The notes under the pieces were generated by a model. It searched no databases. It saw nothing but the letters and a program-made list of their open reading frames with translations, and had not been told where the DNA came from. A program made the translations under genes and the position numbers. Shown in pieces: positions 35,581 through 41,598 of a DNA stretch of 43,788 nt (position 1 is the stretch's first letter; every line of letters begins with the position of its first letter). Origin of the DNA: Paludibacteraceae bacterium (GTDB lineage: Bacteria; Bacillota; Clostridia; Lachnospirales; Lachnospiraceae); the NCBI GenBank assembly GCA_963646925.1, contig CAVIYT010000149.1:1-43788 (forward strand), read 5' to 3'.

Positions 35581-36372
35581 ATGTTGAATGTTCTATGGGC
35601 AGGAATGATGGCGGCCGGGATCTTCTGGGCGGCGTTTCATGGAAATATGGGGGCGGTGACAAATGGGCTGCTGGACTCAGCGAAGGAGGCGGTGACTCTA
35701 GGCATCACGATGCTTGGAATCATGTCGTTCTGGTGCGGGATCCTGAAAATCGGCGAGCGGGCGGGACTCATCGAGGCGTTGACGGAGAAAATGCGGCCTG
35801 TGATAAGATTTCTCTTCCCGAATCTGCCGGACGGACATCCGGCGGGGAAATATATCGCGACAAATATGATCGCGAACATGCTGGGACTCGGATGGGCGGC
35901 GACACCGGCGGGGGTGAAGGCGATGGAGGAGTTGGGAAAGCTGGAGGAAGAAAGACGCAATCTGTGCGTCAGCGGTAAAGATGAGCAGTCGAAAAAAACA
36001 GGTACTGTATGGAATACTCAAAAAAATCAGACATCAGAGAAAATTAGAGACGAAGCAAAACAGGAAAGAACCTTGAGAAACATAGATTTAGATAAAAGAG
36101 TACAAAAAGAATTAGAAAAACGGGACAGAAGGATAAAGAATATTGGTTCCGCAAGGCAAGCAGGTACCGCCAATAATGAGATGTGCACGTTCCTGATCGT
36201 AAATATCTCTTCGCTGCAGCTCATCCCCATCAACATGATCGCCTACCGCAGCCAGTACGGCAGCGTCAACCCGGCGGCGATCGCCGGACCGGCACTTCTT
36301 GCAACTATCGCCAGTACGGCGGCGGGCGTGGTATTCTGCAAGGTCATGGACCGGAAAAAAGTTGATTTTTGA
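35581..36372 (+). CDS. spmA: Spore maturation protein A (nucleoside-recognition/gate domain)
   Basis: MLNVLW, LRFLFP-like IRFLFP, NMIANMLGLGWAATPAGVKAM, EMCTFLIVNISSLQLIP; carries a ~70-aa insertion. Confidence 0.88.
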   Translation: MLNVLWAGMMAAGIFWAAFHGNMGAVTNGLLDSAKEAVTLGITMLGIMSFWCGILKIGERAGLIEALTEKMRPVIRFLFPNLPDGHPAGKYIATNMIANMLGLGWAATPAGVKAMEELGKLEEERRNLCVSGKDEQSKKTGTVWNTQKNQTSEKIRDEAKQERTLRNIDLDKRVQKELEKRDRRIKNIGSARQAGTANNEMCTFLIVNISSLQLIPINMIAYRSQYGSVNPAAIAGPALLATIASTAAGVVFCKVMDRKKVDF

Positions 36373-36390
36373 AAAAAAGTTTACTATAAT
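36362..36390 (+). promoter_or_regulatory. sigmaA promoter of the nickel/peptide ABC operon
   Basis: TTGATT-17 bp-TATAAT; alternative TTGAAA (36369)-18 bp-TACTAT (36393). Confidence 0.6.
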
Positions 36391-36399
36391 ATTACTATT

Positions 36400-36456
36400 A
36401 TGCGGCAGAAGCCCATACTCATAAAAGAGTCCCCCGCCCAAGGCGGTCATACATAG
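36400..36456 (+). CDS. Possible leader peptide MRQKPILIKESPAQGGHT
   Basis: ATG..TAG, 18 codons, starting about 3 nt after the predicted start site; no Shine-Dalgarno; stop codon abuts the first helix of the attenuator chain. Confidence 0.3.
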   Translation: MRQKPILIKESPAQGGHT

Positions 36457-36551
36457 AACTGAGTGAATGTTCATCCATACAGTTCATGAAAAATACAGGC
36501 AGAAGAATCGGTTTTCGGAACTTTTGCAGAACGTATATAATTTGAAATTGC

Positions 36552-36606
36552 AGTACCAGGAAGGTAGAGGTCTACAGAACGTGGGCCGCTTTTCTGGTAC
36601 TTTTTT
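36552..36606 (+). terminator. Intrinsic terminator in the 5' leader of the ABC operon (attenuator)
   Basis: AGTACCAGGAAGG..GGTCTAC-AGAAC-GTGGGCC.GCTTTTCTGGTACT followed by a T-tract, 40 nt before the start codon. Confidence 0.8.
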
Positions 36607-36645
36607 ATGGAGCCGAAGACACTTGCACCGAAAGGATATATATTC

Positions 36646-38325
36646 ATGAAAAAACGTACAATTAAATCAATATTAGCGTCAGCCGTGATCGCAGGCGTCG
36701 TCTGTTCAGCCGCTGGCTGCTCCGGCGCAAAGCCGTCAGCAGACCAGACAGCCGCGTCCGCGAATGCGGAAAACGGGCAGGCAGCTGCGAATGAGACAAG
36801 TGGAGCAAAAACGGATCTCGCGGAAAAAGATTCCGTGATCATCGTCATGGACCCGTCCTCAGAACCGGCAGCGGGATTCGACCCGGCGTACGGCTGGGGC
36901 GCCGGAGAGCACGTCCATGAGCCGCTGATCCAGAGCACACTGACGGTCACAAAGGCAGATATGACTATCGGTTATGATCTGGCAACAGATATGAATGTCA
37001 GTGATGACGGTATGACTTGGACCGTGACGATCCGGGACGGAGTAAAATTTACGGACGGGGAAGAGCTTACGGCAGAGGACGTGGCGTTCACCTACAACAC
37101 GCTGCGGGATACCAGTTCCGTCAACGATTTTACGATGTTGAAAGAGGCGAAAGCCCTGGACGACACCACCGTGGAATTCGATATGACCCGCCCATATTCC
37201 ATCTGGCCCTACACCATGGCGATCACGGGAATTGTCCCGGAACATGCATACGGACCGGATTACGGCTCAAATCCGATCGGTTCCGGCCGCTATATCATGA
37301 AACAGTGGGATAAAGGGCAGCAGGTCATCTTCACGGCAAACCCGGACTATTACGGAGAGGAGCCAAAGATGAAGACGGTGACGGTCTTATTTATGGACGA
37401 GGACGCGGCCTATGCGGCAGCGCTCTCAGGGCAGGTAGACCTCGCCTACACTTCCGCGGCGTACTCTGACCAGACGGTAGACGGATTTTCCCTTCTCGCC
37501 TGCAAGACCGTGGACAACCGCGGCTTCAACCTGCCGGTGATCCCGGCGGGGGAGACGGACGAGAACGGCGTGCCTCTCGGAAATGACTTCACCAGCGATA
37601 TCAACGTGCGCCGGGCCATTAACCTGGTGATCGACCGTGACGAGATGATCGAGCATGTGTTGAACGGATACGGAACCGCGGCGTACAGTGTCTGTGACCA
37701 GATGCCGTGGTACAATCCGGCGGCGAAGACGGACTATGATCCGGATATGGCGATGGCGATCTTAAAGGAAGCGGGATGGACGGCTGGAAGCGATGGAATC
37801 CTGGAGAAAAACGGCGTCCGCGCCGAGTTCACCATGCTCTACCCGACTGGGGACTCCGTCCGCCAGGCACTTGCGGAGGACACCGCAAACCAGTTAAAAG
37901 AGATCGGAATCAAGGTGACGACAGAGGGCGTCGGCTGGGATACCGCCTATGACCGGGCGCAGTCTACGCCATTAATGTGGGGCTGGGGCGCCCACACACC
38001 GATGGAACTATACAATATTTACCACACGGCGCCGGGAAAGAAATACGCGGAGTATTCCCCTTACGCCAACGAGAAAGTGGACGAATACATGGACGCGGCG
38101 CTGGCGGAGAGTGACCTGGAAAAGTCCTACGAGCTCTGGAAAAACGCCCAGTGGGACGGAACGACGGGAATCACCCAGGATGGCGATCTTCCGTGGATCT
38201 GGCTTGTAAATATTGATCATTTATACTGGGTGAAGGATGGTCTGCAGGTGGCGGAGCAGAAGCTTCACCCACATGGACATGGCTGGTCGATCGTAAATAA
38301 TGTCGACCAGTGGACATGGAATTAA
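36646..38325 (+). CDS. ABC substrate-binding lipoprotein, family 5 (nickel/peptide type)
   Basis: Lipobox SAAG-C; IRDGVKFTDGEELTAEDVAFT, PIGSGRY, NVRRAINLVIDR; His-rich EHVHEP and C-terminal HPHGHG. Confidence 0.9.
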   Translation: MKKRTIKSILASAVIAGVVCSAAGCSGAKPSADQTAASANAENGQAAANETSGAKTDLAEKDSVIIVMDPSSEPAAGFDPAYGWGAGEHVHEPLIQSTLTVTKADMTIGYDLATDMNVSDDGMTWTVTIRDGVKFTDGEELTAEDVAFTYNTLRDTSSVNDFTMLKEAKALDDTTVEFDMTRPYSIWPYTMAITGIVPEHAYGPDYGSNPIGSGRYIMKQWDKGQQVIFTANPDYYGEEPKMKTVTVLFMDEDAAYAAALSGQVDLAYTSAAYSDQTVDGFSLLACKTVDNRGFNLPVIPAGETDENGVPLGNDFTSDINVRRAINLVIDRDEMIEHVLNGYGTAAYSVCDQMPWYNPAAKTDYDPDMAMAILKEAGWTAGSDGILEKNGVRAEFTMLYPTGDSVRQALAEDTANQLKEIGIKVTTEGVGWDTAYDRAQSTPLMWGWGAHTPMELYNIYHTAPGKKYAEYSPYANEKVDEYMDAALAESDLEKSYELWKNAQWDGTTGITQDGDLPWIWLVNIDHLYWVKDGLQVAEQKLHPHGHGWSIVNNVDQWTWN

Positions 38326-39311
38326 GAAAAACGGGTCTGTGGCTTGGCAGACAGGCAGTGCGGATGTGTCTGATGGTGCTCTTCGTGAGCATTCTGGCGT
38401 TTGGGCTCCTGGCGGTCTCGCCCATAGACCCGCTTCAGACAAATGTGGGCCAGACGGCCCTGGGGTCCATGAGCCCGGAACAGATCGCGAAGCTCAGAAG
38501 TTACTGGGGAACGGATCTGCCGCCGGTGGAGCGGTATCTGAACTGGCTGAAGGATTTCCTTCACGGAAATATGGGAACCTCCCTTTTATACCGCCGCCCG
38601 GTGGCGGAGGTCATCGGTGAGAAGGTCATGAATTCCGTCTGGCTGTTGTTTACGGCATGGCTGTTATCCGGCATCCTGGGCTTTTTCCTCGGCATTCTCG
38701 CCGGAAAAAAGCGGGGCGGGATCATGGACCGGATCGTCACGGGATATTCCCTGTTTGTGGCCAGCACTCCGGCGTTCTGGGTGGCAATGGTGTTATTAAT
38801 GGTGTTTGCGGTAAAACTTCACTGGTTCCCCATTGGTTTCAGCGTGCCCATCGGTATGGACGCAGGCGCGATCTCTGTCGCGGACAGGATCCGCCATGCG
38901 GTTCTTCCGGCGGCGGCTCTGAGCATCACGGGAATCTCCTCCATCGCCCTGCACACGAGAGAAAAGCTGATCGAAGTCATGGAAAGTGACTATGTGCTGT
39001 TCGCAAGAGCCAGAGGCGAGTCGGAGTGGTCGATCTTACGCCGCCATGGACTTCGGAACATTCTTCTCCCGGCCATGACGCTGCAGTTCGCGTCGGTGAG
39101 TGAGATCATCGGAGGTTCCGTCCTCGTGGAACAGGTCTTTTCTTATCCGGGTCTGGGACAGGCCGCGGTGACGGCGGGACTTGGAAGCGATGTGCCTCTT
39201 CTTTTGGGGATCACGGTGATCACGGCGGTGATCGTCGCGGCGGGAAATCTTGCGGCAAACGTCTTATACAGCGTGATCGACCCACGGATCAGAGAGGGGG
39301 CGAAGCGCTGA
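38316..39311 (+). CDS. ABC permease (NikB/DppB-like)
   Basis: GNMGTSL, STPAFW, SDYVLFARARG, HGLRN, VEQVFSYPGLG, DPRI. Confidence 0.9.
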   Translation: MELRKTGLWLGRQAVRMCLMVLFVSILAFGLLAVSPIDPLQTNVGQTALGSMSPEQIAKLRSYWGTDLPPVERYLNWLKDFLHGNMGTSLLYRRPVAEVIGEKVMNSVWLLFTAWLLSGILGFFLGILAGKKRGGIMDRIVTGYSLFVASTPAFWVAMVLLMVFAVKLHWFPIGFSVPIGMDAGAISVADRIRHAVLPAAALSITGISSIALHTREKLIEVMESDYVLFARARGESEWSILRRHGLRNILLPAMTLQFASVSEIIGGSVLVEQVFSYPGLGQAAVTAGLGSDVPLLLGITVITAVIVAAGNLAANVLYSVIDPRIREGAKR

Positions 39312-40132
39312 TGAAGAAAAATCGCAGAATGGAAAGCTTGGTGCTGCTGATTCTGGCAGCTTTGGTGCTGGTGGTCATCGCGGTCCTTGGAAGTTGCTGG
39401 CAGGAAGCCGCAATCGAAACTGATTTTACGAGAAAAAACGTGGCGCCGTGTATACAATATCCTTTTGGAACGGACTGGATGGGCCGGGACATGTTCGTGC
39501 GGACCATTGCGGGTCTGTCCTTAAGTATCCGGATCGGACTTCTGACCGCGGCGGTCAGCGCTGCGGTGGCCTTCATTCTGGGACTCTGCGCGGCAGTCTT
39601 TGGAAAATATGTGGACAGTGCGGTGCGGATGCTCATCGATATCGTCATGGGAATTCCCCACATGCTGCTGCTGATCCTGATCTCCTTCGCCTGCGGGCGG
39701 GGATTCTGGGGCGTTGTATGGGGAATCGCGTTTACCCACTGGGCGTCTCTGGCGAGACTGATCCGGGGGGAGGTTTTGCAGTTGAAGCAGAGCCAGTATG
39801 TGAAGATCGCGGAAAAGCTTGGAAAAGGGAAGCTTTATATCGCGTTTTTCCACATGGCACCGAACCTGATCCCGCAGTTTATCACGGGACTGGTTCTCAT
39901 GTTCCCCCATGCGATCTTACATGAAGCCAGCATCACGTTTCTGGGCTTCGGACTTTCCGCGGAGAGCCCGGCGATCGGCGTGATCCTGTCGGAGAGCATG
40001 AAATATCTGGCGATGGGAAAGTGGTGGCTGGCGCTGTTTCCGGGACTTTTCCTTGTGGGAACGGTGCTGTTGTTTCATTATATCGGACAGGAACTCTGCA
40101 GGATCTTAGATCCTGGAAGTGTCCATGAATAG
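39311..40132 (+). CDS. ABC permease (NikC/DppC-like)
   Basis: PFGTDWMGRD, ARLIRGEVL, EASITFLGFG, WWLALFPG. Confidence 0.9.
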   Translation: MKKNRRMESLVLLILAALVLVVIAVLGSCWQEAAIETDFTRKNVAPCIQYPFGTDWMGRDMFVRTIAGLSLSIRIGLLTAAVSAAVAFILGLCAAVFGKYVDSAVRMLIDIVMGIPHMLLLILISFACGRGFWGVVWGIAFTHWASLARLIRGEVLQLKQSQYVKIAEKLGKGKLYIAFFHMAPNLIPQFITGLVLMFPHAILHEASITFLGFGLSAESPAIGVILSESMKYLAMGKWWLALFPGLFLVGTVLLFHYIGQELCRILDPGSVHE

Positions 40133-40144
40133 GAGGCGGGGAAG

Positions 40145-40984
40145 ATGAAGGATACGATTCTGGAAGTAAAAGACCTCTCCGTCACCTTCACCCAGTATGA
40201 CAGGGGATTTTCGAGGCGGACGCTCCATGCGGTGGAGAAGATGGATCTTACGGTGAAGAGCGGCGAGATCGTCGCGGTCGTGGGATCCAGCGGTTCGGGA
40301 AAGAGTCTTTTAGCCCATGCGATCATGGGAATTCTTCCATATAACAGTGGGATGGACGGGGAGATCCGATTCCTTGGAGAGCCGCTGAAAAAGGAGCGGA
40401 TCAAAAAGCTCCGTGGACATGAGATCGTCCTTGTGCCCCAGAGTGTGTCCTATCTGGACCCACTGATGAAGATCGGGGATCAGATCCAGAATGGGAAAAA
40501 AGATGTGTCAGTGAAGGAAAAGTGCCTGGCGGTGCTGAAGCGTTATGGACTTTCACCTGATATCCGGGAAAAATATCCGTTTCAGCTCTCCGGCGGCATG
40601 ACGAGGCGTGTCCTGATCTCCACGGCGGTGATGGAAAAGCCGAAGCTTGTCATCGCGGATGAGCCGACGCCGGGACTTCATTTGGAGGCGGCAACCCGGG
40701 TCATGGGACATTTCCGGGAGATGGCGGACGATGGAGCAGGCGTGCTTCTCATCACCCATGATCTGGAGCTGGCGCTTCTCACGGCGGACCGTGTTGTTGT
40801 GCTCTACGGCGGAAGAGTCATCGAGGAGACGGACGCGGCGGCGTTTCAGGACGAGAGGAATCTCAAGCACCCGTACACGAAGGCGCTGTTCCGGTCCATG
40901 CCGAAGAACTGGGAAAAGGATGGGGAACGCCTCTGCGATACGGGCGGGATTTTGGACACGATGCGAAAGGAATACGGCAGATGA
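40145..40984 (+). CDS. ABC ATP-binding subunit (NikD/DppD-like)
   Basis: GSSGSGKS, YPFQLSGGM, IADEPT, ITHD, HPYT. Confidence 0.92.
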   Translation: MKDTILEVKDLSVTFTQYDRGFSRRTLHAVEKMDLTVKSGEIVAVVGSSGSGKSLLAHAIMGILPYNSGMDGEIRFLGEPLKKERIKKLRGHEIVLVPQSVSYLDPLMKIGDQIQNGKKDVSVKEKCLAVLKRYGLSPDIREKYPFQLSGGMTRRVLISTAVMEKPKLVIADEPTPGLHLEAATRVMGHFREMADDGAGVLLITHDLELALLTADRVVVLYGGRVIEETDAAAFQDERNLKHPYTKALFRSMPKNWEKDGERLCDTGGILDTMRKEYGR

Positions 40985-41598
40985 GGCTGGAAGCGAGAGA
41001 GATTTCTTTTAAATACGGAAAAGGAACGAGACAGATCCTGGACCATGTGAACCTTACGGTGGAACCCGGCGAAAAGGTGGGGATCATGGCGCCCAGCGGG
41101 TATGGAAAGACTACGCTCTGCAAGATCCTTGCCGGATATGAGAGGCCGGAGCAGGGGGAGGTTCTGCTTGATGGTACACCGGTGCTTAAGTATCGCGGCT
41201 ACTGCCCGGTGCAGATGGTCTGGCAGCATCCGGAGCTTTCGGTGAATCCGAAGAGGCGGCTGAGCACAGTGCTGGCGGAAGGTGATTGGACTTTCGAGGA
41301 TCCCAGCGAGCGGGCGCGGATCGAAAATGGACTTGGGATCCGGGACGAGTGGAAGGACCGGTTTCCGGTGGAGGTTTCCGGCGGGGAACTCCAGCGATTC
41401 TGTATTGAGAGGGCGCTTGGGAGGCGGACGAAGATCCTGATCGCGGACGAGATGACGACGATGCTGGATCTCATCACCCAGGGGCAGATCTGGGACTTTG
41501 TCTTGAAGGAGCTGAAGCGCCGGGAGATGGGGATGATCGCGGTGAGCCATTCGCCGGAGCTTTTGGAGAAGGTGTGCGACCGGGTGGTGCGGCTGTGA
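40981..41598 (+). CDS. ABC ATP-binding subunit (NikE/DppF-like)
   Basis: APSGYGKT, VSGGELQR, IADE, VSH; ATGA overlap with the previous gene. Confidence 0.9.
   Translation: MRLEAREISFKYGKGTRQILDHVNLTVEPGEKVGIMAPSGYGKTTLCKILAGYERPEQGEVLLDGTPVLKYRGYCPVQMVWQHPELSVNPKRRLSTVLAEGDWTFEDPSERARIENGLGIRDEWKDRFPVEVSGGELQRFCIERALGRRTKILIADEMTTMLDLITQGQIWDFVLKELKRREMGMIAVSHSPELLEKVCDRVVRL

What the first reader, a model, noticed from the sequence alone, without database searches (positions are those of the whole stretch)
36362..36645. Unrecognised multi-helix attenuator or riboswitch-like leader upstream of a His-rich metal/peptide ABC importer
Seen in sequence: between a sigmaA promoter (36362-36390) and the binding-protein ATG (36646) lies a chain of mutually exclusive pairings. 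Segment 1 GAACTG (36456-36461) pairs with CAGTTC (36480-36485). Segment 2 AGTTCATGAAAA (36481-36492) can instead pair with segment 3 TTTTCGGAACT (36512-36522). Segment 3 nearly copies the terminator's right arm (TTTTCGGAACTTTT vs TTTTCTGGTACTTTT), so it can capture segment 4 AGTACCAGGAAG (36552-36563), the left arm of a long T-tailed terminator (36552-36606). Inference: 1:2 plus 3:4 gives read-through, while blocking segment 1 gives 2:3 plus termination. The 5' part has three small hairpins (GGC-AGAA-GCC, ACTC-ATAAAA-GAGT, CCGCC-CAA-GGCGG) that could be an aptamer. I cannot match it to T-box, cobalamin, SAM, TPP or lysine riboswitches. AACTGAG...ACAGTT resembles, from memory, the outer helix of NiCo riboswitches, but the internal junction is missing.
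Basis: partly seen in the sequence, partly recalled or inferred. Interest (0 to 1): 0.78.

Follow-up and report, generated by a model that had tools for sequence, protein, structure and literature searches.

The report
Hairpin attenuator before nickel importer
The leader in front of this nickel-type ABC importer is a conserved, so far undescribed RNA switch made of small look-alike hairpins and a terminator, and it occurs only in genomes that also carry an uncharacterised protein (DUF3842) that may be its regulator.

Summary
The promoter, three small 5' hairpins and the T-tailed terminator are real.

What is conserved:
- Hairpins with a C-NNAA-G loop sit at the 5' end of the transcript.
- The terminator's 5' arm, UACC-AGGAA-GGUA (36554-36566), can fold into another such hairpin (H3). 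H3 and the terminator exclude each other.

No Rfam 15 family matches. ANTAR target RNA is the closest known analogue, but its defining hexaloop (A1, G4) is not met.

The binding protein is YntA-like (nickel). Variants of the motif precede CbiM/NikM-LarB-LarC, LarB, LarC, LarE, other binding proteins and an ECF S component with a kinase. The window's own genome has a second copy before larB-larC.

In two samples of 151 genomes, every true motif hit (10 and 10, own genome in both) lies in a genome with DUF3842 (31/151 and 50/151). The DUF3842 gene sits directly upstream of the motif in at least 16 genomes. Orthologous importers in four DUF3842-free genomes carry a DNA operator-like motif instead.

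Best reading (about 0.5): DUF3842-dependent antitermination of a nickel / nickel-pincer-cofactor regulon. Main rival: a riboswitch.

The parts
36362..36390 (+). Sigma-70-type promoter: -35 TTGATT (36362-36367), 17-nt spacer, -10 TATAAT (36385-36390).
   Evidence: 10 of 12 matches. Conserved in same-genus loci. Equivalent -10 boxes lie 8-13 nt before H1 in most of the 32 leaders where the script found both.
36399..36417 (+). Hairpin H1, at the inferred 5' end of the transcript. Core is GGC-AGAA-GCC (36404-36413): tetraloop NNAA closed by an invariant C-G pair.
   Evidence: -6.1 kcal/mol. Alignment A3 of 33 H1 hairpins: closing C-G 33 of 33, loop positions 3-4 AA 33 of 33, 6 of 7 stem pairs change on both sides, 0 of 500 shuffles reach the covariation score. 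The C-NNAA-G pattern and the three pairs next to the loop were selection criteria.
36417..36430 (+). Small hairpin ACTC-ATAAAA-GAGT. It stands where H2 stands in other genera.
   Evidence: -2.3 kcal/mol. Kept within the genus. Not traced outside the genus.
36434..36446 (+). Hairpin CCGCC-CAA-GGCGG (H2-like, C..AAG type loop).
   Evidence: -7.0 kcal/mol. Identical in all 6 same-genus sequences. The typical H2 of other genera is in alignment A4: 16 sequences, closing C-G 16 of 16, 5 of 6 pairs covary.
36447..36551 (+). Variable spacer.
   Evidence: Not alignable to four same-genus genomes. In other genera the distance from the first hairpin to the H3 core ranges from about 50 to about 135 nt and the sequence is unrelated.
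36554..36566 (+). Hairpin H3, UACC-AGGAA-GGUA. It is the proposed antiterminator and binding site, and it lies inside the terminator's 5' arm.
   Evidence: The core CCAGGAAGG is the same in all 46 aligned leaders, though they were picked with a looser pattern of that type. Over 46 distinct cores, H3 pairs 1-4 are paired in 100, 100, 91 and 85%. Pair 3 is AT 35, GT 4, GC 3, AG 4. H3 forms in the MFE fold of the nascent RNA 36397-36588.
36569..36587 (+). Inner hairpin H4 of the terminator (loop AGAAC). The stem varies between genera; the loop is often of the same C..AAG type.
   Evidence: -8.4 kcal/mol.
36552..36606 (+). Intrinsic terminator: outer stem 36552-36565 with 36588-36601, T-run 36601-36606.
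   Evidence: -28.5 kcal/mol. Outer stem in A1 (46 sequences): 95.8% of cells paired, 3 of 12 pairs change on both sides, 0 of 500 shuffles reach the covariation score.
36630..36648 (+). Ribosome-binding site GAAAGGA (36630-36636) and start codon ATG (36646-36648) of the binding protein.
36646..41598 (+). Regulated operon: YntA-like binding lipoprotein (36646-38325), two permeases (38310-39311, 39311-40132) and two ATPases (40145-40984, 40981-41598).
   Evidence: Pfam. NCBIfam nikA/B/C/D/E are the best or near-best hits, all below cut-off. Best solved relative is Y. pestis YntA nickel-binding protein 4ofl, E 1.4e-100.

Best explanation
The leader 36391-36645 is a transcription attenuator of a so far undescribed class.

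How it is built (shown). Transcription from the promoter at 36362-36390 first makes small hairpins whose loops read C-NNAA-G (H1, plus two more in this genus). A non-conserved spacer follows. Then comes a strong intrinsic terminator. Its sequence-conserved 5' arm, UACC-AGGAA-GGUA, can fold into one more hairpin of the same kind (H3). H3 and the terminator cannot both form.

How it works (inferred). Left alone, the 20-pair terminator wins and transcription stops at 36606. A trans-acting factor that recognises the repeated C-(N)NNAA-G hairpins holds H3 closed. RNA polymerase then reads through into the YntA-type nickel importer operon.

The factor (inferred from co-occurrence and gene order; not shown biochemically). 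The most likely candidate is the DUF3842 protein. It is about 135 aa, has a Rossmann-like nucleotide-binding fold and an invariant Cys, and in this genome is encoded on another contig. It probably acts as an oligomer.

The regulon. The same module controls nickel uptake and nickel-pincer-nucleotide (Lar) genes, including larB-larC in this genome. The signal is therefore probably nickel or cofactor status. Which form of the factor binds RNA is unknown.
For: Structure:
- H1, H2 and the terminator stem covary.
- H3 pairs 1-4 are kept in 85-100% of 46 cores. Pair 3 changes A-U to G-C three times and never to A-C.
- In L052, L065/L085, L253 and L015-type leaders the terminator has a different build but still overlaps the same H3.
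- H3 forms in the fold of the nascent RNA.
- C-NNAA-G hairpins of 5 bp or more occur at 6.3 per kb in 48 leaders, against 0.086 per kb in the genome. Only 2 of 252 coding control windows hold one.
- H1 starts 8-13 nt after the -10 box in most leaders. The loops of H1 and H2 are 19 nt apart in most.

Nickel link:
- YntA is the best solved relative.
- An orthologue directly follows LarC.
- Motif variants precede CbiM-PDGLE/CbiQ/ATPase/LarB/LarC, CbiM, LarB, LarC and LarE.
- A second copy lies before larB-larC in the own genome.
- No NikR_C was found in the own genome, 96% complete.

DUF3842 link:
- Family sample: DUF3842 in 31 of 151 genomes. All 10 true R1 hits are among the 31; 0 are among the other 120. 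Fisher p = 3.5e-8.
- Order sample: 50 of 151. All 10 true hits are among the 50. Fisher p = 8e-6. Related genomes are not independent.
- Hits were sorted into true and false before DUF3842 was searched.
- DUF3842 lies directly upstream of the motif, on the same strand, in at least 16 genomes.
- Of 15 genomes with an importer orthologue of 65% identity or more, 10 have DUF3842. Seven of these carry the R1 motif and two carry a variant.
- The other 5 lack DUF3842. Four of them have a DNA motif over the -35 box and no RNA motif; one is cut by a contig end.
- All 5 still have LarC. DUF3842 therefore tracks the RNA, not the pathway.
- The number of hairpins varies from 1 to 4. That suits repeated protein sites better than a fixed aptamer.
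Against: - No experiment and no RNA data. No RNA-binding motif is recognisable in DUF3842.
- Its fold matches only generic nucleotide-binding domains (UbiX-like, NAD Rossmann; TM 0.43-0.53).
- Its strong conservation (58% mean column identity, 25 invariant columns) would also fit an enzyme.
- In the window's genome DUF3842 is not next to either target.
- In four leaders (L022, L024, L032, L035) and in the own larBC copy, H3 has only the two C-G pairs.
- Among 20 DUF3842 loci of R1-negative genomes, only 3 showed a variant motif next to the gene.
- In the order sample, 9 of the 33 DUF3842 loci that could be read showed one.
- R1 is biased towards the importer type of the motif, so the co-occurrence counts rest on a subset.
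- Hairpins in A3 and A4 were picked for having 3-4 contiguous pairs. The pairs next to the loop are therefore paired by selection.
Confidence: 0.5

Rival explanations
1. It is a true riboswitch. The hairpin set binds a small ligand directly and this shifts the balance between H3 and the terminator. Candidates are Ni2+ or Co2+, the nickel-pincer nucleotide, one of its precursors, or a product made by DUF3842. DUF3842 would then be a pathway or ligand-making protein, not the regulator.
For: - No regulator gene lies next to the operon in the window.
- There are one to two copies per genome, always in 5' leaders of transport or cofactor genes.
- The regulon is coherent around nickel and Lar genes.
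- Tiny tandem-hairpin riboswitches are known (guanidine-II; recalled, not tested here).
- DUF3842 looks like a nucleotide-binding protein or enzyme.
Against: - The conserved unpaired nucleotides are few: NNAA loops only.
- The number and spacing of hairpins vary from 1 to 4, and there is no conserved junction or pseudoknot.
- The loops cannot pair with one another.
- The motif was found in none of the 120 and 101 DUF3842-free genomes sampled, although at least 5 of them have both the importer and LarC.
- DUF3842 lies upstream of the motif, outside its control, which is unusual for a regulon member.
Confidence: 0.25
2. It is the target of another RNA-binding antiterminator. Candidates are an ANTAR protein (this genome has a REC-ANTAR response regulator beside a PdtaS-like kinase) or an unidentified factor.
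For: - The layout is that of ANTAR targets: small hairpins, the last one at the 5' base of the terminator (passages of PMC3369931).
- ANTAR proteins are present in the own genome.
Against: - ANTAR targets are defined by hexaloops with A at position 1 and G at position 4. Here the loops have 4 or 5 nt.
- ANTAR is in 135 of 151 genomes, so it does not track the motif.
- G172 has a variant motif and no ANTAR hit at 98% completeness.
- In G054 and G055 the only ANTAR hit lies in an open frame of 585-591 aa, the length of the CTP synthase fusion seen in the own genome. This was read from the frame length and not checked by Pfam.
Confidence: 0.08
3. One reading: a riboswitch with four mutually exclusive segments (1:2 plus 3:4 gives read-through; 2:3 gives termination).
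For: The pairings can be drawn in this sequence, and 1:2 appears in the centroid fold.
Against: - Segments 1-3 are absent from four same-genus genomes that keep the rest of the leader.
- The 3:4 duplex is only -4.6 kcal/mol, against -28.5 for the terminator.
- In the folds, segment 3 pairs locally.
Confidence: 0.03
4. There is no regulation. The hairpins only stabilise the 5' end of the mRNA, and the terminator is a leaky insulator or the terminator of the upstream gene.
For: - The upstream ORF ends at 36372 and has no other terminator.
- 5' hairpins can protect mRNA (general knowledge).
Against: - The terminator lies after the promoter and H1, inside the leader, in every genus.
- The loop sequence, the closing pair and the H3 sequence are conserved across families of the order, while the stems covary.
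- The module moves between unrelated nickel and Lar operons.
Confidence: 0.05

Closest known systems
ANTAR target RNAs (EutV, NasR, AmiR dual-hairpin antiterminators)
   Same: Small tandem hairpins with conserved loops. The last hairpin is formed by the 5' base of an intrinsic terminator, so that binding a protein dimer blocks termination (passages of PMC3369931).
   Different: Loops here have 4-5 nt (C-NNAA-G, CC-ANNAA-GG), not hexaloops with A1 and G4. There are 1-4 hairpins. The motif tracks DUF3842, not ANTAR.
HutP / hut operon antitermination (Bacillus subtilis)
   Same: A small, ligand-activated, oligomeric protein is encoded directly upstream of the terminator it overrides and binds repeated short RNA sites (passages of review PMC12591593). 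DUF3842 shows the same gene order in at least 16 genomes.
   Different: No homology to HutP was tested. Here the sites are hairpin loops, not clusters of single-stranded NAG triplets. The regulon is nickel and cofactor uptake or synthesis, not catabolism. In the window's genome the protein gene is unlinked.
NiCo (czcD) riboswitch
   Same: An RNA element tied to nickel and cobalt homeostasis.
   Different: No match to any Rfam model. From recall, NiCo is a four-way junction in front of exporters and switches them on. This element is a row of hairpins before importers and cofactor genes.
Guanidine-II (mini-ykkC) riboswitch
   Same: From recall: two very small hairpins with a conserved tetraloop and closing pair, joined by a variable linker.
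   Different: From recall, its loops pair with each other around the ligand and it acts on translation. Here the loops are not complementary, the output is a terminator, and no Rfam hit was found.
YntABCDE / NikABCDE nickel ABC importers (the regulated genes)
   Same: Five-gene layout. The binding protein matches YntA at E 1.4e-100. It is genomically linked to LarC.
   Different: All NCBIfam nickel models score below their cut-offs. The substrate is untested. Known nickel importers are controlled by NikR-type DNA-binding repressors (recalled), and NikR_C was not found in this genome.

Membership tests
Any Rfam 15 family | Covariance-model match at or near the gathering score | tested here: not met
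   Whole window at gathering threshold: 0 hits. Window 36300-36700 at E <= 10: only MIR8008 (22.8 and 20.5 bits against 66) and psRNA6 (8.7 against 60). Twelve related loci at E <= 0.1: only a tRNA elsewhere.
ANTAR target RNA | Two small hairpins, the second overlapping the 5' base of a terminator | tested here: met
   H1/H2 plus H3 inside the terminator's 5' arm. Definition taken from passages of PMC3369931.
ANTAR target RNA | Hexanucleotide loops with A at position 1 and G at position 4 | tested here: not met
   H1 and H2 loops have 4 nt: NNAA in 33 of 33 and 16 of 16. The H3 loop has 5 nt: AGGAA, or ANGAA in variants.
ANTAR target RNA | Cognate ANTAR protein tracks the RNA | tested here: not met
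   ANTAR is in 135 of 151 genomes whatever the motif status. G172 has a variant motif and no ANTAR hit.
NiCo riboswitch | Match to the Rfam model; four-way junction (recalled) | tested here: not met
   No hit at E <= 10. The folds show a row of hairpins and no junction.
Riboswitch (generic) | Conserved ligand-binding aptamer of fixed architecture; direct ligand binding | tested here: inconclusive
   Hairpin number and spacing vary. Ligand binding cannot be tested with these tools.
Intrinsic (Rho-independent) terminator | G+C-rich stem-loop directly followed by a U-run | tested here: met
   36552-36606, -28.5 kcal/mol, six T. The stem covaries.
HutP-like protein-mediated antitermination (works like, not membership) | Regulator gene directly upstream of the target terminator; repeated RNA sites | tested here: inconclusive
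   Gene order met for DUF3842 in at least 16 genomes, but not in the window's genome. RNA binding was not tested.
YntA/NikA-type nickel ABC importer (downstream operon) | Homology to characterised nickel-binding proteins and link to nickel-dependent pathways | tested here: met
   4ofl YntA at E 1.4e-100, and E. coli-type nickel-binding periplasmic proteins at about E 1e-28. An orthologue follows LarC. NCBIfam equivalog cut-offs were not reached, so the substrate remains inferred.

The most novel reading that the evidence does not exclude
DUF3842 founds a new family of ligand-sensing RNA-binding antiterminators.

- It would be an oligomer with a Rossmann-like fold. It has an invariant Cys, which two genomes replace by an in-frame TGA, a possible selenocysteine.
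- It would read nickel or nickel-pincer-nucleotide status.
- By clamping C-NNAA-G hairpins it would switch on nickel importers (YntABCDE and NikMNQO types), LarB, LarC and LarE, and an ECF transporter with a kinase that may bring in a pyridine precursor.

This would be the first RNA-level control of nickel uptake and of nickel-pincer cofactor synthesis.
Probability: 0.4. Interest if true: 0.85.

Novelty: new variant of a known kind. Interest (0 to 1): 0.78.

Why it matters
- From recall, nickel uptake in bacteria is known to be controlled by DNA-binding repressors such as NikR, and the known nickel/cobalt riboswitch acts on exporters.
- This would be an RNA-level switch on nickel importers and on the Lar genes that build the nickel-pincer nucleotide cofactor. 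It is spread over several families of gut Clostridia (Lachnospiraceae and relatives).
- It gives a first testable function for DUF3842. My searches found nothing in print on that function: one unrelated paper for 'DUF3842', none for 'PF12953'.
- It predicts new regulon members, such as an ECF S component with a kinase and siderophore-type binding proteins. These may belong to nickel or cofactor supply.
- The importer is the same in both groups, but DUF3842-free genomes carry a DNA operator-like motif instead. That makes a natural comparison for how regulatory systems replace one another.

Tried and rejected
- Rfam at gathering and permissive thresholds: nothing.
- nhmmer profile of the 5' module: found only same-genus loci.
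120 stretches came back and 19 had a T-run, 2 of them later rejected. It was too loose to show the distribution.
- A leader-peptide reading of the AGGAAGG in H3, or of the 60-aa ORF 36467-36649: rejected. Start codons after it are not conserved.
- RNA-seq: no RNA holder was listed for window 36200-37000, so no reads were laid.
- R1 with filters off did not reach E <= 1 on the more divergent variants L245, L253 and L261. In a second run L245 scored 11.7 bits (E 1.9), and L253 and L261 gave nothing at E <= 10. The alignment it made (A5) mixed in antisense matches and was not used.
- No second, more general covariance model was built, so the share of DUF3842 genomes that hold a motif is a lower bound.
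- DUF3842 against PDB sequences: no hit at E <= 1. Foldseek gave only generic Rossmann or flavodoxin-like matches. The ESM Atlas returned only DUF3842 clusters.
- NikR as regulator: NikR_C not found in the own genome.
- Literature: six searches gave no paper on this RNA or on DUF3842 function. A 2025 review of RNA-binding antiterminators (PMC12591593, passages only) has no occurrence of 'nickel' or 'DUF'.
- No complex prediction was run.
Full report
**1. What is in the window**

Between the stop of a membrane-protein ORF (36372) and the ATG of a lipoprotein (36646) lie the following features.
- A promoter, TTGATT-17-TATAAT, at 36362-36390.
- Three small hairpins: H1 36399-36417 with core GGC-AGAA-GCC, ACTC-ATAAAA-GAGT at 36417-36430, and CCGCC-CAA-GGCGG at 36434-36446.
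- A 105-nt stretch (36447-36551).
- A long hairpin, 36552-36600, followed by six T.

The leader folds better than all 200 shuffles, z = -3.23. The downstream operon encodes an SBP_bac_5 binding protein, two permeases and two ATPases. No Rfam 15 family matches. The whole window gave 0 hits at gathering threshold. Window 36300-36700 at E <= 10 gave only chance-level hits, far below their cut-offs.

**2.

A DNA search of 41 related genomes found the leader in 6, the own genome included.
- One genome keeps the leader whole, at 89% identity.
- Four same-genus genomes keep only window 36382-36447 (91-97%) and 36551-36606 (about 79%).

In the alignment the part that holds segments 1-3 is replaced by unrelated sequence. 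The proposed 3:4 duplex is worth -4.6 kcal/mol, against -28.5 for the terminator.

**3. What is conserved**

Homologues of the binding protein were collected: 434 relatives found, the best 80 loci kept. A start codon and an upstream region could be set for 63 sequences, the window included. Of these, 35 carry CCAGGAAGG inside a T-tailed hairpin. With extra members from a pattern scan, 48 distinct leaders were compiled. The common plan has four parts.

(a) H1. A hairpin begins 8-13 nt after the -10 box in most of the 32 leaders where the script found both.
- Its tetraloop is NNAA (AGAA, UGAA, CGAA, ACAA, AUAA or AAAA), closed by an invariant C-G pair.
- In A3 (33 sequences) 6 of 7 stem pairs change on both sides.
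- No shuffle in 500 reaches the observed covariation score, and sliding the partners halves the pairing.

(b) H2. In many genera a second hairpin of the same kind follows, with the two loops 19 nt apart in most. In A4 (16 sequences) 5 of 6 pairs covary.

(c) A spacer that varies in length and sequence.

(d) The terminator. In A1 (46 sequences) its outer stem is 95.8% paired and 3 of its 12 pairs covary.

A caveat applies to A3 and A4. The hairpins were picked for the C-NNAA-G pattern and for 3-4 contiguous pairs, so the loop, the closing pair and the pairs next to the loop are there by selection. As a control for chance, such hairpins (5 bp or more) occur at 0.086 per kb in the own genome and at 6.3 per kb in the 48 leaders. 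Only 2 of 252 coding windows of the same loci hold one.

**4. The conserved arm of the terminator is itself a hairpin**

UACC-AGGAA-GGUA (36554-36566) can fold on itself, which I call H3. It has the same loop type and a C-G closing pair.
- Over 46 distinct cores, pairs 1-4 are paired in 100, 100, 91 and 85%.
- Pair 3 is A-U 35, G-U 4, G-C 3 and A-G 4. The U-to-C change occurs only together with A-to-G.
- The GGUA strand has no conserved partner in the terminator's 3' arm. Its conservation is best explained by H3.
- In L052, L065/L085, L253 and the G015 orthologue the terminator is built differently, starting in the loop or 3' strand of H3, yet it overlaps the same H3. In L253 the 5' strand of H3 and the 3' arm of the terminator have the same sequence and compete for one partner.
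- In the window, the MFE fold of the nascent RNA up to 36588 shows H3 formed.

Exceptions: in L022, L024, L032 and L035, and in the second copy in the own genome, H3 has only its two C-G pairs.

**5. What the element controls**

The binding protein's best solved relative is the Yersinia pestis nickel-binding protein YntA (E 1.4e-100). E. coli-type NikA follows at about 1e-28. NCBIfam nickel models are the best or near-best hits but stay below their cut-offs. A 69%-identical orthologue directly follows LarC.

A covariance model of H3 plus the terminator (R1) was run on one genome per genus of the family. It hit 12 of 151 genomes, one site each. By inspection:
- 7 sites, the window among them, lie before importer orthologues.
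- 3 are variants with loops AUGAA or ACGAA and a co-varying terminator arm, before other genes.
- 2 are plain terminators.

The variants precede the following genes.
- A CbiM-PDGLE, CbiQ, ATPase, LarB, LarC operon (G146).
- A methyltransferase with a second Opp/Nik-type ABC system (G080).
- An ECF S component (G050).

In a sample of the order, 13 of 151 genomes were hit. Ten hits are true, the own genome included, and 3 are false. The new ones lie before these genes.
- CbiM.
- Siderophore-type binding lipoproteins.
- Six times, an ECF S component of about 180 aa, followed where the next ORF was scanned by a gene with a uridine-kinase-like domain.

The own genome has a second, weaker copy before larB-larC on contig C209 (R1 15 bits). 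NikR_C was not found in the own genome, and neither was LarA.

**6. The tie to DUF3842**

A gene for a DUF3842 protein of about 135 aa lies directly upstream of the motif, on the same strand. This holds in G146, G080, G275, G293, G214, G199, G018, G109, G172, G268, G288, G244, G269, G283, G211 and G277, and probably in G027 and G219. Elsewhere DUF3842 is followed directly by LarB or LarE.

Co-occurrence:
- Family sample: DUF3842 is in 31 of 151 genomes. All 10 true motif genomes are among the 31, none among the other 120, and the two false hits lack DUF3842.
- Order sample: 50 of 151. All 10 true motif genomes are among the 50. Of the three false hits, two lack DUF3842 and one has it.
- Fisher tests give 3.5e-8 and 8e-6. 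Related genomes are not independent, so these values overstate the case.
- I sorted hits into true and false before searching for DUF3842.

The importer itself gives the cleanest contrast. Fifteen genomes of the family sample have an orthologue of 65% identity or more.

| DUF3842 | Genomes | What lies before the importer |
|---|---|---|
| present | 10 | R1 motif in 7; variant motif in 2 (G015, G102); in 1 (G077) the gene follows LarC inside an operon |
| absent | 5 | DNA motif (TATCCCCC, 3-4 nt, then a G-rich GGCTTG that overlaps the -35 box) and no RNA motif in 4; 1 cut by a contig end |

All five DUF3842-free genomes still encode LarC. DUF3842 therefore follows the RNA element rather than the cofactor pathway. 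The same DNA motif stands before about 23 of the 28 orthologues without the RNA motif. That count was made by eye, not by script.

**7. What DUF3842 looks like**

- 24 sequences align with 58% mean column identity and 25 invariant columns. These include a glycine-rich N-terminal loop, GTN, ATGEN and one Cys.
- The AlphaFold model is confident (pLDDT 95).
- Its best structural matches are UbiX-like flavin prenyltransferases and NAD-binding Rossmann domains, at low TM-scores of 0.43-0.53. This points to a nucleotide-binding fold without a close relative.
- No PDB sequence matches.
- In G215, and by the search table in G259, the reading frame has an in-frame TGA. In G215 it falls exactly at the invariant Cys. 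A hairpin 20 nt downstream is only weakly supported.
- Nothing here shows RNA binding.

**8. Mechanism**

Shown: a conserved promoter, 5' hairpins with covarying stems and fixed loops, a conserved H3 that excludes the terminator, and a link to nickel and Lar genes and to DUF3842.

Inferred: the terminator is the default state in the window (-28.5 against -2.9 kcal/mol for H3). A factor that binds the repeated hairpins must stabilise H3 to allow read-through. DUF3842 is the best candidate for three reasons.
- The RNA was never found without it.
- It lies upstream of, and outside, the attenuator, as hutP does (passages of PMC12591593).
- The number of hairpins varies from 1 to 4, as expected for repeated protein sites.

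The signal and its sign are unknown. End-product control by the nickel-pincer cofactor, or by nickel, would fit the regulon.

The main rival is a riboswitch, with DUF3842 as a pathway partner. ANTAR is the nearest known system in layout, but its defining loops are not met and the ANTAR domain does not track the motif.

**9. Novelty**

No Rfam family matches. Six literature searches found nothing on this RNA or on the function of DUF3842. The mechanism class, competition between an antiterminator and a terminator, is classical. The RNA family, its nickel and Lar regulon and its candidate protein partner are new as far as I could see. Supplementary files of the motif-discovery papers listed were not opened, and a candidate motif listed only there could have escaped me.

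Noticed in passing
Upstream regions of L042-L086; L309, L311, L313, L315: Orthologous importers without the RNA leader carry a conserved DNA motif (TATCCCCC, 3-4 nt, then a G-rich run ending GGCTTG) that overlaps the -35 box. In L072, L074 and L080 a second copy stands on the other strand. It is probably the operator of an unidentified, possibly metal-sensing, transcription factor. It is found in the DUF3842-free genomes.
   Followed up: partly
G000 contig C209 = L303, reverse strand, about 100 nt before larB: A second, weaker copy of the attenuator (GCCAUGAAGG ... CUUUUCAUGGC plus six U) lies upstream of larB-larC in the window's own genome.
   Followed up: partly
L212:1477-3114 (-) = G000 contig C161: A CTP synthase with a C-terminal ANTAR domain. 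The same long open frame carries the only ANTAR hit in G054 and G055.
   Followed up: no
L211:1078-2914 (+) = G000 contig C202: A REC-ANTAR response regulator with two ANTAR-like stretches lies next to a PdtaS-type histidine kinase (GAF_PdtaS, HisKA_2).
   Followed up: no
L263:383-385 (G215); also G259: DUF3842 has an in-frame TGA exactly where all other members have the invariant Cys. This may be a selenocysteine form. A hairpin 20 nt downstream is weak, z = -1.95.
   Followed up: partly
L230, L232, L233, L234, L238, L239, L218/L228, L276, L277, L294: In other families of the order the same motif precedes an ECF-type S component of about 180 aa (motif LPMHIPVLL). Where the next ORF was scanned, a gene with a uridine-kinase-like domain follows. 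The substrate is unknown.
   Followed up: partly
L226:5090-5170 (-) (G146 leader): Three to four tandem copies of a 15-nt unit containing UUCAGUGAAGG precede H3 in the leader of the NikM-LarBC operon.
   Followed up: no
window 35581-36372 (+): The upstream ORF (263 aa) has only a sub-threshold match to the Gate (nucleoside recognition) domain (26.2 bits against a cut-off of 29.6) and no NCBIfam hit. It has no terminator of its own before the leader's promoter.
   Followed up: no
window 36467-36649 (+): A 60-aa ORF overlaps the spacer and the terminator. It lies in the non-conserved part and is probably not coding.
   Followed up: partly
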